Below, in pieces: positions 22,496 through 56,048 of a stretch of DNA of 64,000 nucleotides. Origin of the DNA: the human T2T-CHM13v2.0 reference genome, Homo sapiens; assembly GCF_009914755.1 (NCBI RefSeq), contig NC_060943.1; one strand, given 5' to 3'. Each line of letters begins with the position of its first letter. Positions within the stretch are counted from its first letter, which is position 1. The notes beneath the pieces are model-generated. The model was not told the DNA's origin. It saw only the letters and a list, made by a program, of their open reading frames with translations, and ran no database searches. A program made the translations under genes and the position numbers.

Positions 22496-24067
22496 GTGAG
22501 AAACCCTACAAGTGTCCGCACTGTGACTATGCCGGCACGCAGTCAGCATCCTTAAAATACCACTTAGAGCGACACCATCGGGAGCGGCAGAACGGGGCTG
22601 GGCCGCTGTCTGGGCAACCCCCAAATCAAGACCACAAGGATGAGATGTCAAGCAAAGCTTCTCTGTTCATCAGGCCAGACATCCTGAGGGGGGCCTTCAA
22701 GGGTCTCCCTGGAATCGACTTCAGAGGAGGCCCTGCATCTCAGCAGTGGACATCAGGGGTTCTCTCCTCTGGAGATCACTCGGGGCAGGCCACGGGCATG
22801 TCTTCGGAGGTCCCCTCAGATGCTCTGAAAGGCACTGACCTTCCTTCCAAAAGCACCCACTTCTCTGAGATCGGAAGAGCTTATCAAAGCATTGTGAGCA
22901 ACGGTGTGAATTTCCAAGGGTCCTTGCAAGCTTTCATGGACAGTTTTGTCCTCAGTTCCTTGAAGAAGGAGAAGGACATGAAGGACAAAGCCCTGGCTGA
23001 CCCCCCTTCCATGAAAGTCCACGGAGTGGATGGTGGTGAGGAGAAACCCAGTGGCAAGTCCTCCCAGAGGAAGTCCGAGAAATCTCAGTATGAACCCCTG
23101 GACTTGTCTGTGCGGCCAGATGCCGCCTCCCTCCCGGGCTCCTCGGTAACTGTGCAGGACAGCATTGCATGGCACGGCTGCTTGTTTTGTGCTTTCACAA
23201 CGTCCTCCATGGAGCTCATGGCCCTTCATCTCCAGGCCAACCACCTGGGCAAAGCGAAACGCAAAGATAACACCATCGGGGTCACAGTCAACTGCAAAGA
23301 CCAAGCCCGGGAGGCGAGTAAGATGGCCCTGCTGCCCTCGTTACAATCAAACAAAGACCTGGGCCTCTCCAATATGATCAGCTCTCTAGACTCTGCTTCT
23401 GAGAAGATGGCCCAAGGTCAGCTCAAGGAGACTCTGGGAGAGCAGAAGAGCGGTGCATGGACCGGCCACGTGGACCCTGCATTTTGTAACTTCCCATCAG
23501 ACTTCTACAAGCAGTTTGGTGTTTACCCAGGCATGGTTGGCTCAGGGGCCTCCAGTTCCTGCCCCAACAAGGAGCCTGATGGAAAGGCCCACTCTGAAGA
23601 GGATGTCCCCATCCTGATCCCCGAAACCACGAGTAAGAACACTACTGATGACCTCTCTGACATTGCCTCCTCAGAGGACATGGACTCCTCCAAGGGGGAG
23701 AACAACGATGAAGAGGATGTTGAAACCGAACCGGAAATGATGACCAAGCCACTGTCTGCCCTCAGCAAAGACAGCAGCAGCGATGGCGGGGACAGCCTGC
23801 AGCCCACAGGCACCTCCCAGCCCGTCCAGGGACTGGTCTCACCTTTATCCCAAGCACCGGAGAAGCAGTGGCACAGCCAGGGTCTTCTCCAAGCCCAGGA
23901 CCCCTTGGCGGGCCTGCCAAAGCCGGAGCGGGGGCCCCAGAGCCTGGACAAGCCGATGAACATGCTGTCGGTCCTCAGGGCCTACAGTTCTGATGGCTTA
24001 GCAGCCTTTAACGGACTTGCAAGTAGCACAGCAAATTCTGGATGTATCAAGAGGCCAGACTTGTGTG
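22496..24067 (+). CDS. ZNF536: ZNF536 large penultimate coding exon (1572 nt): GEKPYKCPHCDYAGTQSASLKYHLERHH finger, PLDLS motif, atypical C2H2, acidic Ser-rich tail ending ...KRPDLC
   Basis: Acceptor aaatcttgcAG|GT at 22495/22496. The frame is continuous with track ORF 22645-24078, which starts at an internal Met. Donor TGTG|GTAAGT at 24067/24068. Length is a multiple of 3. Confidence 0.96.
23095..23109 (+). other. PLDLS CtBP-binding motif (coding)
   Basis: ccc ctg gac ttg tct is in frame and encodes PLDLS, the canonical CtBP docking motif. Confidence 0.9.
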
Positions 24068-24565
24068 GTAAGTTTTAGAATCCTCTTCCTATAGTTCATT
24101 TCCCAAAACATCAGTGCTGAATTGTGCATTTAAAAAAATGAGGTAGACTTATCCATGAGCAACTTTTGAATGAAATATTTGAAAAAACCCTCAATGCTGT
24201 ATCTGCAATGTAGACAATCATAAAAGTCCATTTTGTTTAGAAGTTTTAGAACTCATACTTTTGTGTTCTAATTTGCATTATAATGTACTAAAATGCCTGT
24301 ACAGAAGGCATGGAAAAGGGGGTGGTCGCTCACCATGTGAACTACTCCTGTTTGCCATCTAGAACTTGAAGGGGGGAAAATCGACTTACAAAACAAAAAT
24401 GAAAAGAGACATGGTAACTTGCAAATTCTTCAGTATTTTCAATTTATGCAAAAGATGCCTAAAGACAATTCCTTACTGCTTTGCTAAGCCAAATCTGCTT
24501 TCTTAAACTTTTCTTTTATTGACTTAGAGGATACTAAAATCATATCACACTAACAACAGTATGGA

Positions 24566-24571
24566 AATAAA
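24566..24571 (+). terminator. Candidate intronic poly(A) signal for a read-through isoform
   Basis: AATAAA about 490 nt past the read-through stop at 24078, with GU-rich tttctgggtgtttgtg about 30 nt downstream. Confidence 0.45.
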
Positions 24572-25098
24572 GCGACCTTCTCTCCAAAGAGGGAGATGGT
24601 TTCTGGGTGTTTGTGACTCATTTTTAGACAAACCAAATGGCAGTTACTGTGACTTTGGCCTTCTGCGCTTGCCTTCTGTTTGTCTGTCTGTTCACCTGTC
24701 TGTCTGTTGCTCTAACAAGACATGTACATTGTGAAGTCCCTGAACAGTAGTGGTGTGACCCTGTGCATCTTGGATTCATGCTTGTCTGATCCTGTAGCAA
24801 ACTGACACTTCTTTATCTCCTTAAAGCATATGGGTACCCCAAAGGAATTCCAGATTTCCGAACATCATTGTAAGTTTAAGGACTAGGTTTGGATCAAATG
24901 AATGTTTGGGTGGGCAGGGGGAATCAAAGTCATTGTCTTGGCACCCTGATATCTGTATTTGGAAGCCTTTCTCCGAAAAGAAGCTCCATGCATTCTTCCC
25001 TTTGAAACCAGCTCCAAATATCCTCACCAGAGACAAATGACCATGATACATTTCCAACTGTAATTTATGAATGGATTTCTGTAATTTTACTTCACCTG

Positions 25099-25210
25099 TG
25101 GAAGGAAGGCAGGAAGGCAGGAAGGCAGGAAGGGAGGAGGGCAGGATGGAAAGAAGGAAGGAAGGAAGGGAAGGGAAGGAAAGAAAAGGGAAGGAAGGGG
25201 GGGAAATAGA
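25099..25210 (+). repeat. (GGAA)n/GA-rich low-complexity tract
   Basis: Directly visible. Confidence 0.9.
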
Positions 25211-28200
25211 AGAGAGTATTTTTGAACCTCAACATCCTGTTGTTCGTTTAAGCACAGAGAAGAATTCAGGAAGCTAGACTCTGGGTTCATAATTTAGATT
25301 GATATATTTCTTTTATTCCTCTTCTTCCCTAATTCACTAGGAACTGAATCAAGCGGTCAGAAATATTTTTTTGAATTGTCGAAAATCACTAAATGGATTT
25401 CTGACAGCTCAAAAAAATATTGACAGTTCCTTATGCTGAATGATTCACAAGGCCCCATTAACCACTACCCCCAGATCTATTTTTAGCCACATACAATTCA
25501 TTACTTTTGAAGCTGTTAAAAACAATATTTAAAAGAAGGGAAAAAAGCGTTTTATGTTAGTCCAAATTTTTTCCCCTTTTTTTTTTAAACTGGGGGAGCA
25601 ATGTTGAAGGCTTTTTTTTCTTTTTTTCATTGTTGTTTTAGGTTTGTGATCGGGGTGGTTTCTTTTTTATTGTTGTTTAGAGTCTTTTTTTTTTTAAGTC
25701 TATTTTCAGTTCTTTCAACTACCTACGTAGGACCATAGTCCCTGCCAGGAATCCATGCATCAGAAAAGATCAAAACCTGGCATGTTCATGAGCTCATTAT
25801 TATTGAAATGAGCTCATATTACCCCTATTAATTTTCCCATCTTCCTATCAGTAATGAAGGAAGGCTGCCTGGCTCGAGGAAGTTTGCCCAGTGGTATCCT
25901 TTCGCACCAGGCGAGGTTGAATGGGAAGCCAACGTCAGGGAGCCTGCCGGGTCTTGAGAGCCTTTTATCTCTGGGCTGCAAGCTCCTAGGAACTTCTCAC
26001 CTTTTCCCAAAACAGCAGCACACGACACGTCCCTGACATTTCCCCGCTATGTGCAAACCGTGTTGCCCAGTCCACCCTTCAGCCTTTGGGCAGCAGATCC
26101 TGGGATGTAAGTTGTGCCCCCCACCCCTCGCCTCTTTCATGGGGCTTGGGGACCCTCATGTCAGCCAAGCTTGAAGGCTTCCTGGTTGCTTCTGCAGCAG
26201 AGGGTTCAGGCCCCTTGTTCCGCCTTCCACTCCTGGGAAGATGCTGAAATTGACTCTGGCCACGAGCTGCCTATTTTTAGAGAGTGTGAGTTCTGCATTC
26301 CATTTGGCCCCATTTCTTCTGTGTCCTCTTGCTTTAGTTTGGAAGTAGGCAGGAAAAGACCCTCCCTGGCTCTTGCATTTGCTTGGGGGTGGGGCCACTG
26401 CCCTCTTGCCTCTAGGATGGGCCTGACTCTGCCAGTTCTCATCCCACTCCCCCCATATCTGGCCCACCATAATTGCAGTCCTCTTCTTATTTTCTTGCGG
26501 GCTACTGTGATATCCCAGAAGGTCCAGACATATTCATCCTTTCTAAAAGTTACAACCTAGGAGGAACACAAATCCAAATGGGCTGTTTTTTTTTTCTTAA
26601 ATAGTGTAATTCACTCTCTTTTTAGCATGGCAAGAAGCACAAGTGACATTTGTAAGCTTCAAACCCCCACTAGCTTCCCTTTGCAAGGGTAGAAGTGATA
26701 TTAGCACAATGAATAAAATATTTCTAATGTTTATTCCTCCTTCTCTTCTTCACTCAAAGTAGGTATGGGTTTCTAAATCCGCCTACCAGGCTGATCACTA
26801 TTTCTCCTTAAGAATCTGGGCTTTGTCAGACCAAAGCATCATTCCTAGATTTCTCATCTCAGATGGATAAAGTTGAGGGCTGGTTTTGTCTGGTTAGTAG
26901 ACCTAAATCCCCACTTTCATGATTATAGAAACAGGCTTATAGGAGGAGCTAATGTTCCCATGTTTCTTAAGGAAGGGCTCTGTTCTCAAGGGGTGTAAAA
27001 GTGTTTGAACAAGCATCAGAAATACCTAGTTCAAATCATATAAACTCCCCACAGATCTCAGCAGCTCCTCCAACCCTTGCTGTTGATTTGGAGAAGGTGG
27101 CATCTCACCCTATTCTGTGGGTGATACTCATATTGCAGGCTGTACTTTCAGGATCTTCCATCATTTCTGCATGCCTTCTTCCTAACTTTTAAAACTCTGG
27201 TCCTAAATTCCTTGGTGCCATAGAGCCAGGGTCCTGGCCAGTGTGCCCTGCCCATCCTAACAGCCAATGGATTCCTAACTCTGGTGCAGAAGGAGAGCCA
27301 CCGAGGGGAGAAGCCGACCCAGCCAGTTGGGTGGGGAGACGCCTGTTGCATATGACAGTGTCGAGAGCTTCAGTGGGAATTTTCTAAAGCTCTTTCCACA
27401 GAGGACAGCACACGGCCTGTCAGAGACATATTACAATAATCCCAAGGAAGAGGTTAAGCCATCTTGGATTAAGCCAGAGGACAGGCATCTTTGCTTCCAC
27501 AGTGGGTCAGATCCCACTAGGGGTCTGATCTCATTATAGGAAATCCCACTCCAATCAAATCCTTAGTTTCTTGAGGTGACTTCCAGTCTCCAGGCATGGG
27601 TCACATGTCTTTATTCTGTCAAAGAGCATAATGTACAAGGGTACTCCAGTGCCATCGGAGAATTTGGATATGCCCTTGGTTTTATTGGAATGTTTGACCT
27701 TGGTTTTGTAATGGGATAGACTCCACATGAGTATTTAAAGGTGGAGAGGGGAAGACCAGAGCAGTGTTTGCATCCATGGACAAAGCAAGGCAGATAAGCC
27801 CAGTCTAGTCTGAGAAATGCTAATGCACTGTTGGGTCGGCACTTGGCTGGGAAGGGGCAGGCTTCCCTGTGCACACAGCACCAAGGCTGGTCTGCACAGC
27901 ACCCATGGGGCCCACTGCATGGAACGGTTAAAAAGTGTGTTTCATCTGGGAGTTTGTGGATTTGGACAGCAACCAGATCACCCTTACTCCTTGCCTTTCA
28001 AACCTAAGAGAGATGGCCAGGGTGTGGAGTTGTTGTGTGCCAGGTCTCCCAGTCAGGCTTTGCACTGTGTCCTTTGGTGGACCCAGGGGTAGGCAGGACA
28101 GAGAAGAATGAATGACAGATGAACGGGAAAGCAGGGAAAAGAGCACACTCCCCTTTGCCCCAAGGAGCTCTGCTCTGTAGTGACTGCCACTCAGGGAAGG

Positions 28201-28236
28201 CTGGCTGAACTGGTAGCATCTGTAAGCAGGCTGAGG

Positions 28237-28392
28237 GCAGGCACTGCGGCTCACACCTGTAATCCCAGCACTCTGGGAGGCTGAGGCAGGGGCGTTGCAT
28301 AAGCCCAGGAGTTCAAGGCCACTGTGAGCTAGGATCATGACATTGCACTCGAGCCTGGGTGACAGAGTGAAACCCCTTCTGTAAAATAAACA
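28237..28392 (+). mobile_element. Alu monomer (FRAM/FAM-like or internally recombined AluJ)
   Basis: Left-arm-type start fused to a right-arm body, about 155 bp. Confidence 0.75.
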
Positions 28393-28803
28393 TGAAATAA
28401 ATATCAGCAAGTTGATTGTGGGCACGAGGCCCTATGTGCAGTGGCTACCAGACCTAGTGACCCAGTGGGCCTGGGAGGAAGTGAGGGAGAATGCAAGCCC
28501 ATTAACAGCAGTCATCCTAACATCCCCAGCTTATCATCCTCAGGTTATTGGGCAACTGGCTTCCCCAACCCAAATTATACCTGAGACTATGGAATAAAGG
28601 TCTTCTGGGCTTCCACATTAGTGAAATAATTGGGACCCCCCCCCCTCCCAAGAATTCGGGTCCATTGAAACCTATTCAAATTACATATTTTTATGTGTGA
28701 TGAGATGAACCAGGACAACCAAAGCTGAACTCTCTTAAAATGTGACTTATCTTTTCCCTAAGCCTTATAGATTTCTTGGCATAGGCAGTCGGAGAATACC
28801 TAC

Positions 28804-29106
28804 TTTTTTTTTTTTTTTTTTTTTTTTGGAGATGGAGTTTTGCTCTGTTGCCTGGGCTGGAGTGCAGTGTGCGATCTCGGCTCACGGCAACTTCCGTCTC
28901 CTGGGTTCAAGCGATTCTCCTGCCTGTCTCCCAAGTAGCTGGGATTACAGGTGCACGCCACCACACCTGGCTAATTTTGTATTTTTAGTAGAGACAGGGT
29001 TTCATCATGTTGGTCAGGCTGGTCTTGAACTTCTGACCTCAGGTGATCCGCCCACCTCAGCCTCCCAAAGTGCTGGGATTATAGGCATGAGCCACCGCGC
29101 CTGGCC
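28804..29106 (-). mobile_element. AluSx-like
   Basis: Dimer with long T tail; TSD aatacctac at 28795-28803 and 29107-29115. Confidence 0.92.
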
Positions 29107-29143
29107 AATACCTACCCTTTTACGAGCTACTCAGTCTAAAGCA

Positions 29144-29362
29144 ACAGGCAGCAAATATTTTCTTAAAGGGCCAGAGAATAAAAGTGTTGGCTCACAGGCC
29201 ATGGGGTGTCTGTGGCGACCACCCAACTCCGCTTTGGAAGTAGCACCACAGCTACCATAGACAATAGGAAAATGATGGCTGTGGTTGCGTTCTATTACAA
29301 CTTTAGGTACTGACAGGCGATGCACTGGAATTGGCCCACAGGGTCTTATTTGGTCAACCCCT
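29144..29362. mobile_element. MER58A-like DNA transposon
   Basis: gcaaatattttcttaaagggccaga...ccatagacaata...ttggcccacagg...caacccctg. Confidence 0.65.
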
Positions 29363-31708
29363 GCTCTGGTGTAAAGAGGGATGTGTTCCCGTGGTCATCC
29401 CTAGGGAATGAGTGGTGCAAACACTGGTCCTCTGTTATTCTGCTGGACAGTGAGATGGTGATGGGAGACCCCTCATCATCAGTGGCAGGGCCCCATCCAT
29501 TGTCTGGTAATGCCAAAGCCAGAGATGTGAGAGAGACTTTACAGTGGTAGAGGACTTGTTGACCCAGATGGGCCGATGCCTTGTTTCTGGGAAGCCACAC
29601 CTCTGTCTATGCATTAAAGACTTCCAGGAGAACACCCCAGCACAGTGCAACCCAGAGCTGCCCCCTCATAGCCAGCACACACAGAAGAGGAAGCGGGCAG
29701 TGGCTGTGTGTTGTCTCTGATGCAAGCTTGCTCTGTGAAAGCCTGTTTCCTCACTGATGGAAGGAAGCGTAGGGATGAAATAGATGATAGAGATAAAAGA
29801 GCTTGGATCAGTGCTTCTCAGTTGAGTTTGCATGACGTCGTGGAGCTCAGCATCCACGTGAAACTGTTGCAAGGAAATGATGTCAGTGTGCAAACATCTT
29901 CGGGTCACAATCGTCCCTTAAGCACGGCAGGCATCAACCTTACCTCCATCAGTGTTAGAGAGGCACGTTTCATTTCCTCACTTCTGCCGTGATGCATGGT
30001 TGATAGCTCTTTCTTGGTATGTGGAGAAGTTTGCTTTGAAGATGATTCTGGCAATTTTGTGATGACCTCCCATCCCAATGGTTACACTATTTCTGTGTCC
30101 ACTCCATTCTCTTCCTGATACCAGGCAAGTGCTTGGGGGTAGGAAATGAGTCCTGCCCTGCCTCAGTCTTTGACCAAGAAACGGCAAAGGTCTGCAGTCA
30201 ATTAGAGACTTGGAAGGAAGCCATGGCTGGGGTATGAAATACACAGTGAGGGCCGCATATGTGCAGACACCCTGAGTATAGGCTGTGATACACAGGCTAT
30301 GGCCATTGGTACATTTTTCATCTTGTGCAAGAGTCTACAGTGTGGCCCAGAAGCCAGCAGGTTCTAATGAAGAAGGGAGGTGAAGGTAGGAAAATGGCAT
30401 AGGAAGACAACCACAAAATCCCAATCTGCCGAGTGTGTGGGAGTGCAGGCTGTACCCAGCCAGCACAAGAAGGCAATTGGCTTGAGGGTGTGGGAGACCT
30501 GGGGCATCTCCACTGCAAGATCTTTTTGTCTCTGTTGCTGCCTTACTTTATTCAAAGACAAATGTGCTCTCATACCTCTTCCTTCTCTTTTTTGTGAGCT
30601 GATTCTCACATGGATTGGCCTCAGAGACTATGGATAAAGCACACCTTTGCATTCACCTCCTTTGCCCAATTGGATAATTTACAGATTAGCTATTGACCTC
30701 TATGGTCTGGCCTGCTCTCATTTGTACTGTGTGTCCGGGGCCTGACATTAGACCCCAGGAGGGAGGACCATTTGGCCTGCCTTGAAGTCCAAGGGCAGAA
30801 CCTTGTGAGTTAATGCAAATCACCGCCCTGTTCTGCCCCTGCTGGCTGCCTCACAACCTGCTGCAGAGCTTTTCTGTTTGACTCTGGAGGGACAAACACA
30901 GGCGATGTCCCCTAGGATCTCTTGCAGAAATCAGCACCTGGAGTGGGCTCTCCCCAGCCCTCATCCTGAGCCCTGCTGTGTGCACTGTGTCTGATGGAGA
31001 GGCAGCCTCTCTGGATGGCAGCTCTCTCCATATTCCAAAGGCATTCTTCTCCTGTTCTCCTTCCCTCTTTTTAAATTAAATGGGAATGCCACTGACGTGA
31101 TGTCGTTTGCACTGCAGGATGACAGAACTGTTGTGTGAATACCATTGTATTTGCCAAATGGTCCACTCGTCATTTCAGAACAAACAAATGGATGGTGTCT
31201 GTAAGTCGGCAAACACTGGTGACATTTAGCCTTGTTTATGTTCCTTTCCTTTTGCTGCATATTTTTGGCTCCAAAAGCTACTGGCTGAATCAACAGGGCC
31301 TCTGAATCAGGAGAGAAGTCTGGTAGCATTAATTTTAGTTGCTATGTCCATATTCTCTTCAGACTGCATGAATCCTACTGCTCAGGACCAAGTCTAGGTG
31401 AGAGGAGAGGGCAATCAACCTCTTTGGTTTCGGATGTTGTGTGCAAAGCCCAGGGTTCAAATAAGCAGTAATTATCTCCTATTACTTAGTGCTGATCAAC
31501 AGCACCTCTACGTCTAATTGCCAACCTGCCCTAATCATGTTGACTATTCTTGCTTTAGCCAGAGACAGAAGGACCAAATTTTATAAATAACACTTTATTG
31601 TCATTATTCCATTAAACGATTAGGGGATGTGGCCCTGCCCTTGCTTTCAAATGCCTCTAGCCCTGATGGTTTCTGGATTATTTAATAAATCTGCACATTT
31701 TCTTGCAG

Positions 31709-31716
31709 GTAAGTGA
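31709..31716 (+). CDS. ZNF536: ZNF536 last exon coding stub GTAAGTGA (completes Gly-Lys-stop; C-terminus ...DLCGK*)
   Basis: Strong acceptor cacattttcttgcAG at 31708. Phase matches the upstream exon. Followed by UTR-like sequence and AATAAA. Matches my recollection of the ZNF536 C-terminus. Confidence 0.85.
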
Positions 31717-32610
31717 CACTCCCTGTCCTAGTCGGTCTATCTGGACTTGCCCTTGTCTGTTCGTGGTCCTCGGTGGTTATCTGCAGCTTGTTAATCGTGT
31801 AAAGTCAAGAGAAGAATGTATACACATATGTGTGTTGAATAATTACTATTGGCATAGGTATGTGTATACACACGGTGCACCAATCTACAGTATATATAGC
31901 AGAGAATCAGAGGCTAAAAATATTACCCCATATGTTCCAGTATTAGTCATGGATTGCAAAGGCTTAGTAACTTGAGCAGGAGAGAAAACTCCCTCAAAGT
32001 CATAAATCCTGAGTGACAACTGCTGCTGGATGACAGATCCCTTCACCTGTGGACAACCTGGCTGGGGGTGGGGGGCTGTTCCACCAGCTCACCTGAGCAT
32101 GTAGAGGTGGGTCCTGCAGTGGTCTCGTGGGTATTACTGCTTGTGTCTGATTGTCCTGTATTTTGTAACACTTTAGAAGAATACAGAAAAGTGCAGTAAT
32201 TCTCTTTCTCCATAGTATTTAAGCAGAAATATTGCTAGTTTAATATTGTGTCAGGTCGTCCTATTAACCAGGAGCAGATGACAGTAAAATTTCAGTGAAT
32301 AGCACCTTGACATCTACAACTTAAAAATGGTGATTGAAGCAAAATATGTAAACTTGTACGGGGTGATCGTGTGCTTTGGAACAGAGTATTGTTGAAGTAA
32401 TTAGAAGATATATTAAGGTGTTCCTGGTAATGAAGGCATGTAAGTTATAATAATTGTAGCTTTCTGAATAAGTGTCAAACTATATCTTTAAGTGTGCTGT
32501 ATGCTGAGTTACAAGTTAGGTCATTTATGAATGGAATGTAAAATAATACTAAAAATGCTTCAATAACTTATCTTGGTATTGCTAATAAAAAAAAAAAGCT
32601 GTGAAACATT
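31717..32610 (+). other. ZNF536: ZNF536 3'UTR
   Basis: Repeat-free AU/UGUA-rich sequence between the stop codon and AATAAA at 32584. End coordinate is approximate. Confidence 0.8.
32584..32589 (+). terminator. Poly(A) signal AATAAA
   Basis: Canonical hexamer with upstream UGUA motifs and U/GU-rich sequence downstream. Runs into a genomic A11 tract. Confidence 0.75.
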
Positions 32611-34777
32611 AGTGCAGTTTGGAGTCATTATGTTAATTCATTCCGCAACATCCCCCTCACCCCGACATTCTTCTCACTGTTGGAAGCCTCAACAGGACAT
32701 TCAGGGAATGCCATTGACCCTGCTTCTTGGGCTGTTTGCCGGGGCAGATCATTGCATTTTTCTATCCACTCTTAGGTGGGCCCTGTGAGTAACAATTCAT
32801 AAACATGCAAGTGGAAAAGGACCTTCCAATTTGGGTGGATGACTGTGGGGGGTGGGGGAGAGCCAGGCGACACGGGCCCGTTTCTCTGTACAAGTGACTT
32901 TTAGGTGTCTAGACCCCACAACCGCCCAGAGGAACTGTGGCTGGGGTGGTGGGGGTGGAGGGTACTTGGGCACGGAGTATGCCGGCCATCATGCCCCATC
33001 CCAGATGTGGAAACGCTGACACCCAGCCTCCCTTCAGCAAATCTGAACATGTTCTTTTCATCCTGCGAAGGGGTAGTTTGTAATGAAGAGACTCAGGATT
33101 CGCGGAGGTGGGAATCTTTATGTTCTGCTGACCTTTTCGGACTGTACTTGTGTTTGCTGTAACAGGCTTTTGCCTGTTGTTCCACTTTGCCTCCTGGTGG
33201 GGAGAGAGGTGTGGGAAGAACCGATTTTGCTTTTTGCTTGTGTTGCTTGGTTTTGTGGTCCGTGAGCTGGACTTGAGGGTCCTGCCATTTCAACGGTGTT
33301 TCCAAGCTTCTTTGCTTGGATGTGTTTTGTAAATTTCTAAATTCAATGACCATCCCTGAGCCCTTGTCTAACTGGTCCTTTTGGGGGACTGGGGGTAGGA
33401 CACAATCTCATAGGACACAATCTCAAGCTCCAAGTCCGTTCTTCACAACCCCAAATAAATAAAGTGTCCTCTGTGTAACAAGGGAATGGAAACCCAGAAA
33501 TGCTCATTGAACAACCCTGGCCTCCGCAACAGGACAATTGCATCACCCTAGCTGGTTGAAACATTTCTTCCGGTATTTCTCATAAAACCTTTTCAAGTGA
33601 CTCTGACTCCAAAGACCACAGTATGGCATTAGGTTGTCTTTTATTTTGGGAAAGAGGTAAAAAGTGAGAGATTCGGAGTCTGAGAAGACACGATAAAAGC
33701 TTCAAAGAGAAAATGTCGATTGTGAAGAAGGTTGTCAGATTTCCTGGTGGTCAGTGCCCACGACTGCTGCCTGATTCCCTTCATATGAAGCTGGGAGCAC
33801 ATACCATGGGTTCCTTTGGAAACTGTGATGGATCCCTAAATGCCTAGCAAAGGTAAAGTGAATGACCCTAACCTCCAGGCCCCAGGTCTGTGTGGCCACA
33901 TTTAGGCAGGGCCAGTTTCCACTGCCAGTGTATATAGGCCAAGCCTGTACAAGAAGTAGGGCCCCAGGAGAGGTTTTTCTTTATTTGCAATGTCCCCTGA
34001 GTCTAAGGACCTGCCCCAAGGGGAATGGGGTGCACATCGAGGGAAAAATTCCTCCAAGCCTTTTTCTCGGGGCCTCTGTCCAGGGCTGAGCACACTGTTC
34101 CTGGCGTTGCCGGTCATGTACACCCCGCTGCCCACTTCCTGCAAACCTGGGGCACCATAGCACCTGTGGGTTTTGCCAGTCCTCCTGGGATGGGGCCCAG
34201 AGGGGTATAGATGGCATGTGGGGGGCTGGGCTTTGGAGGCAGAGGGAGTGCAAAGCCAGTGAGGGAGAGGCTGCTGAAGGGAACGGATCTTCCCAGCCCT
34301 TTGCATTGACAGCCTGGAAGGCTCCCTGGAGCCGTGTATTCAGGCGTCTGCTGTTCTCTCTTCCTTTCCATGGGGGCCCAATCCCCCTAACGGGATCTCC
34401 AAGCTGGAAGACTCGGAAGCATTTCCGTTTCTAAAGCAGGGGGTATTTCCTGAGTTGCTCCCCGGTGGAAACTTCTCAAGCTTAGAGGGGGCCTTTGTGG
34501 ATTCTCATTCTCCTGCTTTTATGAAGCCAGCTCCGTCCTGCTCCCCATCTTCTCATTTCAGGGCACTCACGCCGTACACTCCCCCTGCTTCCCATCCACC
34601 TCCTCCTCATCATCCCCATCCCTGGTTAACAACTTCCTTCTCAACAGTTGCGTGTTCTTGGGAATATCCCGTCTTCTGCCTGCCGGGGAGCTGGGTGGAT
34701 TCAGTTCTGTGGAATGAGCCAACTTCATTTTACAGCTCTGCAAGGGGGTCAGGAATTCTGTTTCCTGTGTGTTCCTT

Positions 34778-35026
34778 CCCCCTAAGCCACCTTCCATCCC
34801 CAAGTGGGATTATAACAAGCCCACCATCCCCATATACCACCATCCATCCCCACATGGGAATATAACAAGCCCACCTCCCCCATAAACCATCATCCATCCC
34901 TACGTGGATATATAACAAGCCCACCTCCCCTGTAAACCACCATCCATCCCCATGTGGAAATATAACAAGCCCACCTTCCCCCAAGCCACCACCCATCCAC
35001 ATGTGGGATTATAACAAACCCCACCT
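34778..35026. repeat. Minisatellite, 50-bp unit, about 5 copies
   Basis: TATAACAAGCCCACC recurs at 34811, 34861, 34911, 34961 and as a variant at 35010. Confidence 0.95.
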
Positions 35027-36009
35027 GTTTGAATTCAGACCTGAAGCAAATGTAAACATCATCCATTGGATCTACCCTCAGCCTGAGACCTGGACCCTTC
35101 CTAACACGAACACCCTGGTCTGGATAAGAGACCACCCCCCCGCCCCATTGTATATGGAGCAGAGTTCCAAGGAGACATCTGTGACTTAAGATGAGAGAGG
35201 CCAAGGAAGGGCAGAGTGCCTTGCAGTAAGAGAGTCTTCAGATCCACTTTTCTATTTACACATGTTCGGAAGTGTGTTTGCTTTGATGAGATTGTAGATA
35301 TTCTGGTTGGAGAAAAAGAATCTAAATGTTGGGAGATGATTATTCCATAAGTATAGTCACTTTTTCTCAAAGAAACTTCGCGATGATTAAATTACATCCC
35401 CAAATCGGCAGCAGTGCATTGGCAATATTGTCTCTGCGTAAGCAGATTCTGCCTCTGGAGCAAGGGATGCGCATTTTCAAGGTTAAAGTTGGGGAACTCT
35501 GCACAGCTATTTCATTAGCAAAAATAGCCATTTGTGCATCCAGACATTGGCTGGCTTCACGAGGGGTTTGTCTTTCATGTTCTTTGTGGAGTTGTCCAGA
35601 CACACCCATCTAATGGTAACTCACTGCTCACAAGGTTAAGTTTTCTTTTTGAACTTCTGTTGTTGTCAAATTAACATAATATGCTCTCAATTATCCACAT
35701 AAAAGGAGAAAGGCAACCAAGCGGGGAAAGCAAATTTGCAATTAATTTACCAAATTATTGCTCTTTTTATATGATGGACAAGTTGCTTTTTTCTTGAGTT
35801 GGGATTTGTCTCTACTGGGAAGAGAGCTGGGGTTGACCACGAGGACAGGCCACTCCAAGGTGTGCCCTGCACCTGGGGAAGGGCTGAAGGTGGTTTTGCT
35901 GAGGTGCACAGTGGCCCCAGTGGATAATTAGGGACTCACACTAGGATTAGCTCTTTCTTGTCAAGTAGAGGGGTCGTTAGTCCTCTCAATCCCCTAAGAC
36001 TTCCTTGGT

Positions 36010-36440
36010 GACCTAGTTGGGTCTCCCTAGAGCAGATCCTGAGGTAAGGACCTGGATGCAGGCAGTAGATATGGGAGGTGACCCAGGAAGCATGAGTGAG
36101 GGAGCAGGGAAGGGAGACAGAGAAGGCAGGTAAATCAACAAGCACAGGTGCACTCATGAGAGGGTCAGTACTGCAGGACCATGGGGGCTCAGCCCCTTTG
36201 GGGGTCCTCTAAGGTACTATGTGGAGCTCCTCTTGGAACAGTCTCTTCAAGGATTGAAGGAGCCGGGGTATTTACACACCAGCTTTTCCTCTCCCAGCAG
36301 CTGAGGGTCCCTCCAGCCCACCTGATGGCCAACCATTCTTCCCATAGTGAGAGAAAGCCCTCAGGCAGAATGAAGCAAGAGGCCATTGGTATTGCCAGAT
36401 AATCAGATAATCAGAAGGGAAGGAATGAGGAACCAACAGT
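36010..36440. mobile_element. LTR16-like ERVL LTR fragment
   Basis: gagcagatcctgaggtaagga...tgggaggtgacccaggaagca...gggaagggagacag. Confidence 0.45.
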
Positions 36441-38739
36441 ATCTGCTTCAAGTGAGAACACCCTCTTGGGTACCCAGTAGAAAGTCGCAGACCTACCAGA
36501 GCCACAGATGAGAACAGATGTGCAGGTCATGGCTCCTGTGGAGAGGGAAGTGCATGGCCTCTCAGCTTAGGGGCCAGGTTACTGGAGGAAAGACTGGCGG
36601 GCTGGTCTGGGGGAGACCTTGAAGCAATCATGTTCCAAGGAGCTTAGATAACTCACGTGTCCTCTTTGGGCACCATTTTCCTCTCAGCCAAAGGAGGGAG
36701 CATTCCAGATGTCTGCTCCGGACCCTCTTAGGTCTTAAACTCTATAGTCTCCACCACCCTTTTCCAGTCCTCACTTTTCAGATGACTCCTCCGGACCCTG
36801 TCAGTCCTGGAGTCCCCATACCAGTAGGGCCCCTGGGATATGTTCTGGTTTCCCACAAGCATAAGAGCATGCAGGCTTTCTATTTGGGCAAGGCCATCTG
36901 CCATTCCAGTGCACGGGCATATGAAACTTGCCTTATCCTGAAGATATTTCTGTTAAATTAGAAGAAGACCATTGAGGATTTTCTTTTAATTGTGGAAGTC
37001 TGTTAAAATAGCAAAAGAAAAGAAAAGAAAGGAGATCAATGAAACTGGATTTTCAGCTCATGGAAATGCAAGAAAAACCTGATTATCTGACTTTTTTCTC
37101 TTTTATTTTTCAACCTGTCGAGCTCACAGTTGAGCTTGAGAAGACTGTATTTTTTATGATGATCAGGTTATCTTTGAGTGCTTTACAGATACCAGTGTGT
37201 GAATCCAGGAGTTCCCTTTTGGATAAAAGTGCCTCCTGCTTTCTTTCAATACATGTATCCATCACACTTAGAGGGTGGGAACCCAGGCACCGAGAGATAC
37301 GGGCTCAGGCTCTCATCTTGCACTCACGGGGCACGGAAGCAGTTCACATTCACTTCCTTCTGTGCCTGTGACCATCCCACTTTTCCATCCTGAGAATTCC
37401 CTTGGTCACTCAAAATCACTCTGAGCTTGCAAGCCCGGGGTAGTTTGGAACAGTATGCTCTGTCTCTACATGGGAAAGCTTTTTGCTTTCAATTGGATAT
37501 CTTGTCATAGGCATTTCTTAATCCAATTGCCTCAGTGTTATCACCCATCAAATGAGGCACTCGTGTATCCCTTAAGAGAATAAAGTGAATATGAAGAACT
37601 TGGAGGTTGTCGAGTCACCCTCATTTCAATTATTTTAGGCTTTCTGCAGCCATGTAGGCTCCAGGCAGAGCTTCGATGAAGACCGAGAACCCGCTAAAAC
37701 CCCGCTGAGTGGCTGGAGAATCTGGGCAGGTTATTATAAATCATGGTGCCCCACCCTCATCCTTGCCAATTTGTACTCACCGCTGGAAGGTCTCTTTCTG
37801 GATGGCCCATCTGGGATTCTTCCCATCCCTGGGGTGAACACATCTGGAGGTCTGTTGGGGAACCTATATGATAATTCAACAAGCCCATTCTTGCGATGGA
37901 CAGACACACCCCCATTGGCTCCAACTGAGCTGTTTTCACTGTTTTCTAGTGGTAAAAAGTATTTACCATTAGGAAATTTTTAAAAATCATCTCTCGTGGC
38001 CAATCGGTGGCCCAGATTCTTGTATCAGTGGTTTTTGGGTTTCATTAAGACTTTGGGCTCTAGAACTGTCCTTTCTAAATGATACCCAGTAATTTAATTT
38101 TAAATCACAAAGGGAATGTTCTTGAAGCCTTTGAGGTAAATGCCGCTGCAAAGTGAATGATCACCTCTAATTTGCACAGGTTAAACACCTGGATGTCATG
38201 TTGGGGTGGTTTTGTGAAGTTCCCAGTTTTCTTTCGTGACAGTGGGTTTTGCAACAGGAGCTGTTGTGTGAGGTGGGTGATGGGACTGGGGTTTGCCAGG
38301 CAGGCTGACCTCACATCCCAGAAGACACAGGAGGGAGAGGTGCTGGGCGTGACGGATGCTCTAGTGGTGGGAAGAGGGATTCCTAAGGGCCCCTTGCCCA
38401 GCCTGACAACCCCTGCGGATGAGCCCAAGGACAGGCTGGGGCACACAGGCCTGGAACCTCCAGATGGACACACACAATTCCCACTATGTCAAGGTGTCTC
38501 TGGGATGGGACAGCAGGGAGGCCTAGCCCCAGGGGCCTGGGATGGGGGGACCAAGGGAGAGGGAGAGTGCCACAGAGGACCCAAGGGCTAAGGGGACCAG
38601 AAAACAAGAGGGGGTGAATGGCTGAAAGGAAGAGAAATGCATGAAGATAGAGGGAGAGAAGTGCAAATGCAGTTCAAAGAGAAGAAGGAGGAGGATTAAA
38701 GAGAACCTGGAGACCTGGGAAGATAAAATTAAATGAAAG

Positions 38740-38862
38740 AGTCGGGTGTGTTGGCACATGCCTGTGCTCCCAGCTACTCAGGAGGCTGAGGCAGGAGGAT
38801 CACTTGAGCCCAGGAGGTGGAGGCCAGACTGGGCAACAGAGCAAGATCTAAAAAAAAGAAAA
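38740..38862 (+). mobile_element. Alu right-arm fragment with internal deletion
   Basis: cccagctactcaggaggctgaggcaggaggatcacttgagcccagg...ctgggcaacagagcaaga plus A tail. Confidence 0.8.
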
Positions 38863-40112
38863 AAGGAAAGGAGAAGGTAAGAGAGAAAACAAGTAAGAAG
38901 AGAGTAGAAGAGAAATGGTGGAGGTTGCATCTGGAGGAGAGGAAAGAGTGGAAGAAATGGGTAAAGAGGAGAGAGAGAGAGAAGGCCAGCAGAAATGAAA
39001 GGATCCTGGCAGGGAACCTTTTCCGAAGCCTCCTGGGGCTGTAGGTGCCCAGGCTGATGGGATGGGCCATCCCACTGCTGGTGGTCCTGGTGGTCAGGCT
39101 GGGGAGAAGGGTGCTCAGTGGCTGTGGGTAGGGATGTTGGGGAGGCTTCGAGGGTCAGGGAGACCCCCAAGCGCAGCCCCTGGCGCTCGGGCTGGAGCTC
39201 CAGCAGTGCCTCCTCCCGCTTGCTCCACTCCCACCGCCAGTTTCAGGAGGAAATGCTGCAGCTTAATCAGAATTATTTACAAGATAATGGTCCATTGTTT
39301 GCACTGAGACAGATGTTGTCTGTGGGAACTTTGTGTTTTATGCTCTTTTCCCTGCTCTGCCTTCACTGGGTGCAGATGGGATGGAAGTAATGTGAGTTAT
39401 GACTCCAAGGATTGGAAACGGGGAGATGCTCCACTCCTGCCTGGGCTCGGCGGGGCCACAGAGCTGGGCTGGCACCTGGTAGGCAGGGGTGGAGAACAGC
39501 CACTGTGGCTGCAGGGCTGTGATTAAGAAGGTCTTATTTCCTAGAGGGGCGGGTCCGTGCCATCGCCTTGTCCGGGAAGAACTCTGATTAAGATGCACTT
39601 CTGTTTGTTGCGTTGAGAGGTCACCGTTGACATCTCAAACGAGGGTGACCATCTGCTCCTCTTTTTGCCAAAAGGAAAGCTCAACCCCTCTGGGGTGGGG
39701 AATGTGTAGACCCCTTTCCTTTTTTTTTTTTTTTTAACTTATCAGAGAGCTTCTTCTTGGTCTTCTGGAGTCAGTTAGGAAGCCAAATCTGGGCTTGTGA
39801 CTGCCTGCCCTGCTTCTTCAAGGGTAAGGTCAGCTGAGTGAATGACGGCTCCATCTACTTACCCGGGGAGAGAGCATGTTGCAGAGGAGGAAAGATGGGG
39901 TGATCTGGGGAGACTTGGCCTGCTACCGGACTTGTTCCGAGCCTTGCCCCGGTGGGGGCCCACCCTCCTGTGAAGCCCGCAGGTCTGCCAGGCCTTCAGC
40001 ACTTCTGGACCCCAGCCACTTCTGCGTAACCAGAAACCCTCTGTCATTATCAGAACCCATTTTATGAATGAGGAAACTGAGGCCAAGAGATGCTAGATGG
40101 CTTGCCCACAGT

Positions 40113-40276
40113 CTTTTTTCTTTTTCTTTTTAAATTTTTGTTTTTATATCATTGCATGTGGTGAAGTTTGGACTTTTAGTGTACCCGTCACCTGAATAGT
40201 GAACGCTGTACACAACAGGTGATTTTTAAACCCTCACCCCCTCCCACATCCCCACCTTCTGTCATCTCCAATGCCT
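40113..40276 (-). mobile_element. L1 (L1MA/L1PB-like) 3'-end fragment next to a MIR piece (about 40050-40110)
   Basis: tggtgaagtttggacttttagtgtacccgtcacctgaatagtgaac. Confidence 0.65.
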
Positions 40277-41152
40277 GCTGTCTGCTCTTGCTGTCATTTT
40301 CTACTCTTCCAGCGCCTCAGGTTATGACCTTCCCACTCCAGGGGGCCCCTCTGAGCCTCAGCTTGGCCAGCTGAACACCAGGAGTGAGGATAGCTGTTGC
40401 AGAGTCAGGGAGGGGAATTCCCTGAGACACACACCTCCAATGCCAAGCACCGAACCTGATAGCCCATCTCACAGATGACAGCAATCAGTGTCATCAACCG
40501 CATCACACCAGTCCTCCAAGACACAGCATTTATAACGTCAGGCTGTGACCACCAACAAACAGAAAAAAACAAAGTAATAAAATATCCCAGGTCACGCTTG
40601 GATGCTAAAATCAAGCAGTCGTGGAATAAAGAAAGTCACTTTCAGGGCAACTATGTAAAATCAGTCGTGGCCTTTGGGCAGCCTAGAGGAGAACTCAGTC
40701 AGCCACGGCTCCTAACCCTGCCCCACACCCTGAGTGTCTATGAGGGGTCACCCAGAAATCAGTTACCACCGGGACGTTTTGTTCCGTTCAAAAACCAGCC
40801 GTGTGGGGGCATCCTGGGTCTGGGGCAGATGACTGTTTCCCCAAAATATCTCCATGCCCAAGGAACAGCTCCCTTTATCCCAGCAGCAGGATCTGGTCCT
40901 CCGAACTCACCCACTAACCTTCCAAGCAAAGTTGTAAATAATAAAGACTTCCTCTGTGGCAAGTCCTGTTCTAAGCTCTGTACAGATGAGAGTACAAATT
41001 AGCTTCTTACATTTCATCCTCATGAAAACCCAAGGATGTGGATGGAGTATTTATTATTCTCATTTTAAGTATGGGGAAACTGAGGCACCGAGCAGCATCT
41101 TGTCACACCTAAGATCACTCGCATGTAAACAACGGGGCTGAGATTCAGAGCT

Positions 41153-41636
41153 GGACAGTGGAGGTCCCTGGGAGTGGCCTCTCCGGGCAGTGGGGGGATC
41201 CCTGCCTGTGGCCTCTCCGGACAGTGGAAGTCCCTGTATGTGGCCCCTCTGGACAGTGGAGGTCCCTGTGTGTGGCCTTTCCGGACAGTGGAGGTTCCTG
41301 GGAGTGGCCTCTCCGGGCAGTGGAGGGATCCCTGCCTGTGGCCTCTCCGGACAGTGGAGGTCCCCACATGTGGCCTCTCCGGGTAGTGGGGGTCCCTGCA
41401 TGTGGCCTCTTTGGGTAGTGGAAGTCCCCGGGAGTGGCTTGTCCAGGTAGTGAGGGTCCCCGCATGTGGCCTCTCTGGGCAGTGGAGGGATCCCTGCCTG
41501 TGGCCTTTCCATGCAGTGGAGGTCCCTGTGTGTGGCCTCTCTGGGTAGTGGCGGTCCCCGCGTGTGGCCTCTCCGGGTAGTGGCGGTTCCTGGGAGTGGC
41601 TTCTCTGGGCAGTGGAGGTCCCTGGGAGTGGCCACT
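41153..41636. repeat. GC-rich minisatellite, 15 units of 32/34 bp (consensus GGRYAGTGGAGGTCCCTGNNWGTGGCCTCTCC)
   Basis: Units counted by eye from 41153, 41185, 41219, 41251, 41283 ... 41607. Confidence 0.97.
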
Positions 41637-44107: not shown

Positions 44108-44111
<4 letters not shown>

Positions 44112-44142
<31 letters not shown>

Positions 44143-44418
44143 AGACAGAGTTTGCTCTGTCACCCAGTCTGGAGTGCAGTGGCATGATCTCCACTCACTG
44201 CAACTTCTGCCTCCTGGGTTCAAGTGATTCTCTTGCCTCCGCCTCTGCAGTAGCTGGGATTGCAGGCATGCACCACCACGCCTGGCTAATTTTTGTATTT
44301 TCTAGTAGAGACGGGGTTTCACCATGTTGGCCAGGCTGGTCTCCAATGCCTGGCCTCAAGTGATCTACCCACCTCGGCCTCCTAAAGAGCTGGGATTACA
44401 GAGCCACTGTACCCGGCC
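44112..44418 (-). mobile_element. AluS with ~30-T tail
   Basis: Alu dimer. Confidence 0.9.
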
Positions 44419-44481
44419 CAGAGAAGCATTCTTGAACCCTCTGTCCACAACACAGCAAATAGCCCCGGGGGCTGTGGATAG

Positions 44482-44676
44482 CAGTGGTTCTCAGCTAGGG
44501 GCAATGTTCTCCCCTGGGGGACACTTAGCAATGTCTGGAGATATTGGGGAGGGGAGTGCTTCTGGCATCCAGGGGCCAGAGATGCTGCTAAATGCCTACA
44601 ATGCACAGGACAGCCCCTACCACAATTATCTATCCCCAAATATCAGTAGCAATAGTGCCAAGGTTGAGATACCTTG
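44482..44676. mobile_element. MER20 DNA transposon
   Basis: cagtggttctca...gcaatgtctggaga...gatgctgctaaatgcctacaatgcacaggacagcccc...agtgccaaggttgaga. Confidence 0.8.
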
Positions 44677-53655: not shown

Positions 53656-53799
53656 TACAGGCTAGTTGTTCTTTTACTTATAGCTAGAAAATCACTATCT
53701 GTGTTCTATCTTTGGAGTGTAAGAGAGTTTAGAGAGGTAAAACAAGAAGAAGAAAATGGCTTGCACCTGATCGAATGACTAATGGGTTTTCCATGACAG

Positions 53800-55746: not shown

Positions 55747-56048
<302 letters not shown>

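What the first reader, a model, noticed from the sequence alone, without database searches (positions are those of the whole stretch)
24060..31720. Terminal exon starts with a perfect 5' splice site: candidate recursive (ratchet) splice site
Seen: the last acceptor reads cacattttcttgCAG|GTAAGTGA. It is a 3' splice site fused to the consensus donor GTAAGT, and the stop codon TGA overlaps that donor. The upstream donor is TGTG|GTAAGTT, so splicing recreates TGTG|GTAAGT exactly. Established: AG|GTAAG junctions define recursive splice sites in long neuronal genes, and exon junction complex deposition suppresses re-splicing. Inference: the spliced RNA could either be polyadenylated at 32584 or be re-spliced to an exon beyond this window. 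That would be a splice-versus-polyadenylate switch in which the two coded residues are a by-product of the donor sequence.
Basis: partly seen in the sequence, partly recalled or inferred. Interest (0 to 1): 0.85.

Follow-up and report, generated by a model that had tools for sequence, protein, structure and literature searches.

The report
ZNF536 last exon rebuilds its donor
The short ZNF536 messenger ends in a last exon whose first six letters recreate the splice donor that was just used, so the RNA could be spliced again to a distant, ancient zinc-finger exon instead of being cut and polyadenylated; no RNA evidence for that second step could be examined here.

Summary
Exon 4 ends ...TGTG|GTAAGT (window 24067). 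The RefSeq Select terminal exon starts cag|GTAAGTGA (31709), with stop TGA at 31714-16, AATAAA at 32584 and annotated end at 32611. Joining the two rebuilds the same 9-nt donor.

The same donor is annotated joined to a last exon 161 kb downstream in 30 of 47 models. That exon adds a C2H2 finger that is 43-46/46 identical from sharks to human. The proximal exon is used in 15 of 47 models.

This is therefore a skipped-type alternative last exon that also meets the published sequence definition of an RS-exon. What differs is that a poly(A) site closes it, not a downstream donor.

Whether re-splicing happens is untested. The octamer is at chance frequency (1 seen, about 2 expected). RS-type junctions occur in 1.7-4.9% of internal exons. 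Direct splicing gives the same mRNA. The GK* tail recurs in 8 mammalian protein clusters, but the whole locus looks constrained.

Four RS catalogues exclude such sites by design. No held paper links ZNF536 to recursive splicing.

Verdict: a plausible, testable variant of a known kind, not shown. Interest 0.5.

The parts
22496..24067 (+). ZNF536 coding exon 4 (1,572 nt). Its last base, G, is the first base of the split Gly codon.
   Evidence: RefSeq exon table; translation; GC 0.56 overall and 0.59 in the last 200 nt.
24065..24073 (+). Original donor 9-mer GTG|GTAAGT. It is used for all three downstream acceptors.
24076..24078 (+). TAG stop of the unspliced read-through isoform (tail CGKF*).
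   Evidence: (XM_054322780.1). The same GKF* tail is seen in 17 orthologue clusters.
24068..31708 (+). First sub-intron, 7,641 nt. It is the first 4.7% of the 161,224-nt intron and holds two annotated hESC enhancer marks and little repeat.
31682..31708 (+). 3' splice-site region. It has a TTAAT candidate branch point (A at 31685, -24), a short pyrimidine tract CATTTTCTT and CAG. An AATAAA hexamer overlaps at 31684-31689.
31709..31714 (+). GTAAGT at the exon start, the candidate recursive 5' splice site. In unspliced RNA it reads CAG|GTAAGT, which matches the consensus donor (recalled) at all nine positions.
   Evidence: It is the only AG|GTAAGT on the sense strand of the 161-kb intron.
31714..31716 (+). 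TGA stop of the short (RefSeq Select) isoform, overlapping donor position +6.
31709..32611 (+). Proximal alternative last exon, 903 nt, with 8 coding nt. GC is 0.385, which is intron-like.
   Evidence: (15 of 47 models, including NM_014717.3).
31858..31863 (+). Donor-like TAG|GTATGT, 149 nt into the exon. It could close a classical RS-exon, but such motifs occur here at chance density.
   Evidence: 4 motifs with at least 7/9 consensus matches in 903 nt.
32440..32445 (+). Donor-like CAT|GTAAGT, 731 nt into the exon.
32584..32589 (+). AATAAA poly(A) signal. It lies 875 nt after the rebuilt donor and 22 nt before the annotated end. It is followed by an A run and a GT-rich stretch.
32612..64000 (+). 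Start of the second sub-intron. It runs on to chr19:33231291, and 152,680 nt separate the poly(A) site from the distal acceptor.

Best explanation
Window 31709-32611 is a skipped-type alternative last exon of ZNF536. It is also a recursive-splicing exon closed by a poly(A) site instead of a downstream donor.

Shown:
- Exon 4's donor is annotated joined to this exon, giving the short protein that ends CGK*.
- The same donor is annotated joined to a distal exon 161 kb away, which adds an ancient C2H2 finger.
- Joining exon 4 to the proximal exon rebuilds the identical 9-nt donor.

Inferred:
- The proximal acceptor is transcribed roughly 40-75 min before the distal one (this assumes 2-4 kb/min, a recalled rate). 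Many transcripts therefore splice to it first.
- The part-spliced RNA then faces a race. Cleavage and polyadenylation 903 nt downstream, helped by an exon junction complex masking the rebuilt donor, fixes the short mRNA.
- If the poly(A) site is passed, U1 and the spliceosome can use the rebuilt donor once the 40-nt or distal exon appears. That removes the proximal exon without trace and gives the long mRNA.
- I expect this two-step route to supply some of the long isoform, not all of it.
For: - Exact sequences and frame.
- The rebuilt donor equals the used donor over -3..+6.
- The predicted single-strand accessibility of the two donors is similar: 0.36 for the rebuilt one and 0.33 for the original.
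- Annotated use of one donor with three acceptors: 15, 30 and 1 of 47 models.
- Intron of 161,224 nt in a 488-kb gene, described as brain-specific (abstract of PMC12558893).
- It is the only AG|GTAAGT on the sense strand of that intron.
- GC falls from 0.59 in the last 200 nt of exon 4 to 0.425 in the first 200 nt of the proximal exon. That is the exon-to-intron contrast Zhang 2018 reports at rebuilt donors.
- The site fits Blazquez's definition of a putative RS-exon. That paper shows EJC repression of rebuilt donors and incomplete repression in normal cells.
- The GK* tail is present in 8 of 8 mammalian protein clusters whose short tail is neither the read-through GKF* nor the DDSQ type. They cover primates, horse, hedgehog, bat, anteater and platypus.
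- The distal finger is 43-46/46 identical in 77 proteins, so the long isoform has to be made reliably.
Against: - No RNA-level datum was available: no lariats, nascent reads or knock-downs.
- The first-step product is the RefSeq Select mRNA, so the rebuilt donor is evidently left unused in many molecules.
- Last-exon definition usually couples acceptor use to cleavage (established knowledge, recalled). Cleavage ends transcription before the distal exon exists.
- The octamer is at chance frequency.
- Donor-like exon starts are common: 3.6% of internal exons, n=6,837.
- Exon 4 of the same gene also rebuilds CAG|GTGAGA, simply because it encodes a TGEKP linker.
- Conservation of GK* may reflect blanket constraint, since no repeat is masked within 2 kb either side of the exon. 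It may also reflect homology-guided gene prediction.
- Zhang 2018 concluded that most AGGT cassette exons do not act as RS exons.
- The downstream donor-like motifs are at chance density.
Confidence: 0.4

Rival explanations
1. This is an ordinary alternative last exon and the GTAAGT start is coincidence. The short isoform arises when acceptor and poly(A) site are recognised together. The long isoform arises only when both are ignored and exon 4 splices directly across 161 kb. The rebuilt donor is never used.
For: - The octamer is at or below chance.
- 1.7-4.9% of internal exons rebuild a donor, and 93.8% of those are constitutive.
- Exon 4 shows the same feature for coding reasons.
- Direct and two-step routes give identical mRNAs.
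- The distal acceptor has a good pyrimidine tract and a CTGAC branch-point motif.
- The short form is the Select transcript.
Against: - The match is perfect (GTAAGT) and identical to a donor proven to work.
- AGGT is 4.7-fold under-represented at annotated acceptors, so this arrangement is normally avoided.
- A two-residue tail has no obvious protein-level reason to stay GK* across 8 mammalian clusters.
- The donor would have to wait 38-76 min beside a usable acceptor (polymerase rate recalled).
Confidence: 0.4
2. The site works as a U1 docking site on unspliced RNA, not as a re-used donor. CAG|GTAAGT matches the consensus donor (recalled) at all nine positions. Bound U1 would mask the overlapping acceptor and, by telescripting, damp the poly(A) site 875 nt downstream. 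That would favour read-through to the distal exon. This reading does not exclude recursion.
For: - In the unspliced RNA all nine positions match the consensus donor. In the used donor -1 to +6 match and -3 and -2 do not (consensus recalled; sequences).
- Distance to AATAAA is 875 nt.
- U1 depletion causes intronic premature polyadenylation in thousands of genes (abstract of PMC10404622, seen in the listing).
- AGGT sites can serve as either kind of splice site.
Against: - In the predicted fold of the unspliced context the site is mostly paired, with mean unpaired probability 0.20. This is weak evidence.
- The acceptor is plainly used, since the Select mRNA depends on it.
- No binding data were available.
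- The effective range of telescripting is recalled, not checked.
Confidence: 0.15
3. The proximal 3' end is an annotation artefact from internal priming on the genomic A run after 32589.
For: Eleven A's follow the hexamer.
Against: - A canonical AATAAA sits 22 nt before the annotated end, with a GT-rich stretch after it.
- The exon belongs to the curated Select transcript and 14 further models.
- A GK* tail is predicted independently in 8 other mammalian clusters.
Confidence: 0.03

Closest known systems
Vertebrate RS-exons. Cryptic ones: Sibley 2015, not held and only recalled. Annotated ones: Blazquez 2018, PMC6224609, sections 6, 8, 14, 28 and 30 read.
   Same: An exon whose start completes a 5' splice site once it is joined to the preceding exon. 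It lies in a long intron of a long brain-expressed gene. The published logic of EJC repression of the rebuilt donor applies directly.
   Different: Classical RS-exons are closed by a downstream donor, and the contest is between two donors. Here a poly(A) site closes the exon, so the contest would be re-splicing against cleavage. Blazquez analysed internal exons only. Their text never mentions polyadenylation, terminal exons or last exons. Gordon 2021 states that typical RS-exons lack cleavage/polyadenylation sequences.
Skipped-type alternative last exons / intronic polyadenylation
   Same: It has its own acceptor, AATAAA and cleavage site inside an intron. The upstream donor chooses between it and downstream exons. 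The protein is truncated before a domain.
   Different: Ordinary last exons of this kind are not reported to rebuild the donor, so once spliced they are committed. No held paper tying recursive splicing to last exons was found.
Composite terminal exons and U1 telescripting (5' splice site against a downstream poly(A) site; the IgM secreted/membrane switch is a recalled example)
   Same: After the first splice the RNA is formally a composite terminal exon: a strong donor followed 875 nt later by a poly(A) signal.
   Different: The composite arrangement is created by a prior splicing event and is not encoded contiguously. An EJC would sit 20-24 nt upstream of the donor.
Dual-specificity AGGT splice sites (Duan 2024, PMC10809524, abstract read)
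   Same: An AG|GT that could act both as acceptor and as donor.
   Different: Only acceptor use is documented here. This is not a tandem-repeat gene.
Drosophila zero-nucleotide ratchet points (Duff 2015; recalled, and quoted)
   Same: A pyrimidine tract followed by AG|GTAAGT that regenerates a donor.
   Different: Ratchet points leave no exon in mRNA. Here the exon forms the 3' end of the main annotated mRNA.

Membership tests
Recursive splice site / RS-exon (Sibley 2015; Zhang 2018; Blazquez 2018) | An AG|GT site with a usable 3' splice site directly followed by a donor consensus. | tested here: met
   ttcttgcag|GTAAGT with a candidate branch point at -24 and 59% pyrimidine over -25..-4. MaxEntScan scores were not computed.
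Recursive splice site / RS-exon (Sibley 2015; Zhang 2018; Blazquez 2018) | The junction with the preceding exon rebuilds a 5' splice site of canonical strength. | tested here: met
   The rebuilt GTG|GTAAGT is identical over -3..+6 to the donor used by all 46 spliced models.
Recursive splice site / RS-exon (Sibley 2015; Zhang 2018; Blazquez 2018) | Lies in a long intron (at least 5 kb in Zhang's pipeline) of a long gene. | tested here: met
   161,224-nt intron in a 488,078-bp gene.
Recursive splice site / RS-exon (Sibley 2015; Zhang 2018; Blazquez 2018) | Evolutionary conservation of the site. | tested here: inconclusive
   Only protein tails could be read. GK* occurs in 8 mammalian clusters and in no sauropsid, amphibian or fish cluster among the 131 proteins with a readable exon-4 end. 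No orthologous DNA was available, and the locus is constrained as a whole.
Recursive splice site / RS-exon (Sibley 2015; Zhang 2018; Blazquez 2018) | An RS-exon closed by a downstream 5' splice site that competes with the rebuilt one. | tested here: not met
   The annotated exon ends at a poly(A) site. The donor-like motifs at 31858 and 32440 are unannotated and at chance density.
Recursive splice site / RS-exon (Sibley 2015; Zhang 2018; Blazquez 2018) | The first-step junction (upstream exon to RS site) is observed. | tested here: met
   Junction 24067^31709 is present in 15 of 47 RefSeq models, including NM_014717.3. This rests on annotation, not reads.
Recursive splice site / RS-exon (Sibley 2015; Zhang 2018; Blazquez 2018) | The second step is observed: a lariat starting at the RS site, a saw-tooth profile, or dependence of distal splicing on the site. 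| not testable with these tools
Skipped-type alternative last exon | Own acceptor plus poly(A) signal inside an intron, with the same donor alternatively joined to a downstream exon. | tested here: met
EJC-repressed annotated RS-exon (Blazquez 2018) | An internal exon whose inclusion falls on EJC depletion through use of the rebuilt donor. | not testable with these tools
   This exon is terminal, and that study covered internal exons only. No knock-down data were available here.
Dual-specificity splice site | The same AG|GT is used as a 3' and as a 5' splice site. | tested here: inconclusive
   3' use is annotated. No annotated transcript uses 31709 as a donor.

The most novel reading that the evidence does not exclude
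A mammal-wide recursive splice site sits at the first base of a poly(A)-containing last exon of a schizophrenia-associated neural repressor. The choice between the 10-finger form and the form carrying the extra distal finger would then be a three-way race between EJC deposition, cleavage/polyadenylation and re-splicing. It would also be the first member of a class of recursive last exons that every RS catalogue misses, because those catalogues discard annotated splice sites or terminal exons.
Probability: 0.3. Interest if true: 0.75.

Novelty: new variant of a known kind. Interest (0 to 1): 0.5.

Why it matters
ZNF536 is described as a brain-specific transcriptional repressor and a schizophrenia risk gene (abstract of PMC12558893). 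Functional work there treats it as the 10-finger short protein. The long isoform adds a finger that is almost invariant from sharks to human.

If the proximal last exon can be spliced out again, isoform choice is not settled when its acceptor is used. It is settled later, by competition between polyadenylation, the EJC and U1. That would link recursive splicing, telescripting and alternative last-exon choice in one element that can be tested.

There is also a methodological point. Four published RS surveys exclude such sites by design:
- Zhang 2018 drops sites that overlap annotated splice sites.
- Bass & Salzberg 2026 drop loci at intron-exon junctions of any transcript.
- Hoppe 2023 drops sites within 100 nt of annotated splice sites.
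- Blazquez 2018 covers internal exons only.

A census of last exons that rebuild a donor has apparently not been done.

Tried and rejected
- Duplication of the donor region as the source of the shared GTAAGT: rejected. The flanks on both sides of the hexamer are unrelated.
- Internal-priming artefact at the A run: rejected (see rivals).
- Transposon-derived exon: there is no masked repeat of 100 bases or more within 2 kb either side of the exon.
- Enrichment of the motif: not found.
- Chromosome 19 census of acceptors followed by GTAAGT: not possible. The genome pattern search lists only the first 100 of 547 places, all on chromosomes 1-3. Of those 100, 28 lie in sense orientation in protein-coding genes, 21 are antisense only and 51 lie outside, which shows no sense bias. 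The reversed control keeps base composition but not dinucleotide order, so the threefold deficit is only indicative.
- MaxEntScan scoring: no model was available, so I used 9-mer identity and consensus counts.
- RNA folding of the three contexts: the differences are small and carry little weight.
Protein tails served as a proxy.
- Limits of the protein searches. One search listed 41 proteins of 1,144 candidates, with 6,856 sample-only candidates left out. One search listed the best 120 of 267, so 147 were not seen. One search listed 88 of 93 candidates.
- Tails of the 156 proteins: 25 had no recognisable exon-4 end (ZNF219 paralogues and fragments). The other 131 split into 73 long-finger, 17 GKF*, 8 GK*, 15 D-type and 18 other.
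- Not-in-print claim. It rests on these searches: ZNF536 + recursive splicing, 0 papers; Zfp536 + recursive, 4 papers, all unrelated; recursive splicing with intronic polyadenylation, terminal exon or alternative last exon, no such case; ZNF536 + polyadenylation, 10 papers, none on this exon.
- One search was badly designed. Its listed papers do not mention ZNF536, so it was uninformative.
- Sibley 2015 is not held. What I say of it is recalled or quoted from others.
- Supplements are closed and I did not ask for them. The site lists of Blazquez, Zhang, Hoppe, Bass & Salzberg and the retina Iso-Seq preprint are in supplements, and any of them might name ZNF536.

Full report
WHAT IS THERE. Exon 4 of ZNF536 ends ...CTTGTGTG at window 24067, and the intron begins GTAAGTTTTAG. 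The exon at 31709 is preceded by ...ctgcacattttcttgcag and begins GTAAGTGACAC. In frame this reads TGT G|GT AAG TGA, so the short protein ends Cys-Gly-Lys. The T of the stop is donor position +6. AATAAA lies at 32584-32589 and the annotated end is 32611. Over positions -3 to +6 the junction made by splicing is identical to the donor just consumed.

THE GENE DOES NOT END HERE. The RefSeq table holds 47 ZNF536 mRNAs. After exon 4 they take four routes:
- 15 use the proximal last exon, including the Select transcript NM_014717.3.
- 30 join the same donor directly to a last exon at chr19:33231292, including three curated NM records.
- 1 curated record inserts a 40-nt exon at chr19:33164094, which gives the tail DDSQ*.
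- 1 model reads through the donor, which gives the tail GKF*.

I fetched the rest of the intron from the window's own genome. The full intron is 161,224 nt. The candidate site lies 7,641 nt into it, and 152,680 nt separate the proximal poly(A) site from the distal acceptor. The distal exon encodes GHRPFQCRYCPYS...H....H, a C2H2 finger. Its Pfam zf-H2C2_5 match has E = 1.4e-5 at 25 bits, just under the curated 27-bit cut-off. Over 46 residues it is 43-46/46 identical to human in 77 proteins, from sharks and rays to mammals.

IS IT MORE THAN CHANCE? The octamer alone is not.
- AGGTAAGT occurs once in the window on both strands, against 1.94 +/- 1.36 in shuffles.
- It occurs once on the sense strand of the whole intron, against 2.3-2.7 expected.
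- There are 27 AG|GTRAG sites in the intron. Four of them are AG|GTRAGT, and only this one is GTAAGT.
- Genome-wide, a pyrimidine-run version of the motif occurs 547 times against 1,626 for a reversed control. The arrangement is if anything avoided, although that control does not preserve dinucleotide order.

The meaningful coincidence is that the single copy sits exactly on a used acceptor. Published numbers temper this. Depending on threshold, 1.7-4.9% of human internal exons rebuild a donor-like junction (3.6%, n=6,837, at the working threshold), and 93.8% of those are constitutive (Blazquez 2018). AGGT is 4.7-fold under-represented at annotated acceptors (Duan 2024 abstract). Within ZNF536 itself, exon 4 starts GTGAGA after an exon ending CAG. 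That is simply because the junction falls inside a His-Thr-Gly-Glu-Lys-Pro finger linker. A donor-like exon start is therefore uncommon, not rare, and it can have a trivial cause. No coding cause is apparent here, because only two residues are encoded.

CONSERVATION, AS FAR AS IT COULD BE READ. No vertebrate DNA is reachable, so I used predicted protein tails from three searches. They returned 156 proteins, and one search showed only the best 120 of 267. In 131 proteins the end of exon 4 is recognisable:
- 73 continue into the distal finger.
- 17 end GKF*, the read-through tail. These come from squirrels, marmot, big cats, mouse lemur, pocket mouse, a bat, echidna, birds, a tortoise, a monitor lizard and rattlesnakes.
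- 8 end GK*: two macaques, sifaka, Przewalski's horse, hedgehog, a sac-winged bat, tamandua and platypus.
- 15 have D-type tails from the 40-nt exon or its frog counterparts.
- 18 have other tails.

Read-through gives GKF* in mammals, including a monotreme. The GK* tails therefore most likely come from the homologue of the 31709 exon. That would place AG|GT-AAR-stop across mammals. No bird, reptile, amphibian or fish cluster shows GK*. Three cautions apply. Gene prediction is homology-guided. Wobble positions are invisible in protein. The whole 200 kb is repeat-poor, with 1.6-20.6% masked per 10 kb against 38% for chromosome 19 and nothing masked within 2 kb either side of the exon. Blanket constraint could therefore explain the conservation.

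HOW IT MOST LIKELY WORKS. The element is certainly a skipped-type alternative last exon. It also satisfies the published sequence definition of an RS-exon. It shares Zhang's accessory features of a long intron and a GC drop across the rebuilt junction, here 0.59 to 0.425.

It fails one classical feature: a poly(A) site closes it, not a competing donor. The donor-like motifs at 31858 and 32440 are unannotated and at chance density. If either were used, the TGA would lie 141 or 723 nt upstream of the new junction. By the 50-nt rule quoted, such a transcript would be a nonsense-mediated decay target, as reported for most RS-exons.

My preferred model is a race. At 2-4 kb/min (a recalled rate) the distal acceptor appears 38-76 min after the proximal exon, so the donor often pairs first with the proximal acceptor. 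Then one of two things happens:
- Cleavage at 32611 fixes the short mRNA. An EJC 20-24 nt upstream of the junction helps by masking the rebuilt donor.
- The polymerase runs on, and the rebuilt donor is used once a downstream acceptor exists.

I put 0.4 on this route carrying a real share of the long isoform. I put 0.4 on pure coincidence with direct splicing only. I put 0.15 on the site acting mainly as a U1 docking site on unspliced RNA. There CAG|GTAAGT matches the consensus donor at all nine positions, the poly(A) signal is 875 nt away, and telescripting is documented in the abstract seen. That last reading does not exclude recursion.

KNOWN OR NEW. No held paper contains both ZNF536 and 'recursive splicing'. 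The four papers with Zfp536 and 'recursive' concern recursive feature elimination and the like. Searches pairing recursive splicing with intronic polyadenylation, terminal exons or alternative last exons found no such case. [quoted passage not shown]

Four surveys would have missed this site by design:
- Zhang 2018 drops sites that overlap annotated splice sites (passages).
- Bass & Salzberg 2026 drop loci at intron-exon junctions of any transcript (sections 5 and 11).
- Hoppe 2023 drops sites within 100 nt of annotated splice sites (passage).
- Blazquez 2018 studies internal exons only (section 28), and never mentions polyadenylation or last exons.

Sibley 2015 is not held.

VERDICT. If real, this is a new variant of a known kind, a recursive exon that is also a last exon. 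It is a good experimental lead and not yet a finding. Interest 0.5.

Noticed in passing
window 9540-9551 and 22496-22507: Exon 3 ends ...ACACAG and exon 4 starts GTGAGA, so their junction also rebuilds a strong donor (CAG|GTGAGA). The cause is the His-Thr-Gly-Glu-Lys-Pro finger-linker codons. No annotated transcript skips exon 4.
   Followed up: partly
window 15330-15418: The 87-nt exon, found only in Gnomon models, inserts 29 residues into a finger linker. Its donor in this assembly reads AAAAG|GGAAGT, that is GG and not GT. I could not tell whether this is an assembly-specific variant or a non-canonical site.
   Followed up: partly
L010 4094-4133 (chr19:33164094-33164133): A 40-nt exon gives the tail DDSQ*, with its stop 26 nt before the last junction. 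Near-identical tails (DDSQ, DDAQ, DSQ, DDSH) are predicted in horse, vampire bat, owl, tortoises, a sea turtle, gecko, monitor and dragon lizard. This looks like an old second way to make a protein without the distal finger.
   Followed up: partly
window 31684-31689: An AATAAA hexamer lies 20-25 nt upstream of the proximal acceptor and overlaps the candidate branch point.
   Followed up: no
window 1-64000 and L001-L013 (chr19:33040001-33240000): The whole region is repeat-poor: 1.6-20.6% masked per 10 kb against 38% for chromosome 19. That fits a locus dense in conserved non-coding sequence. Two hESC enhancer marks are annotated inside the first sub-intron (26086-26586 and 27756-28257).
   Followed up: partly
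L008 2819 (chr19:33122819) and L010 5837 (chr19:33165837): There are two further CAG|GTGAGT sites on the sense strand of the distal sub-intron, each with about 60-65% pyrimidine upstream. They are possible cryptic recursive sites. The second lies 1.7 kb after the 40-nt exon.
   Followed up: no
whole genome G000: Y6-N-CAG|GTAAGT occurs 547 times, against 1,626 for the reversed pattern. Of the first 100 places listed, 28 are in sense orientation in protein-coding genes, 21 are antisense and 51 lie outside.
   Followed up: partly
proteins P0150-P0152, P0095, P0097: Kemp's ridley turtle models insert an extra in-frame segment (GRKKPEEGICVCDS...) between exon 4 and the distal finger. Dugong and gundi models end in a shared alternative tail (...MSFALQDDRTVV). 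There are therefore further lineage-specific exons in this intron.
   Followed up: no
literature: A retina Iso-Seq preprint (10.1101/2024.08.08.607267, one passage read) lists ZNF536 among the top differentially spliced exons between cell groups. The exon is named only in a supplement that I could not open.
   Followed up: no
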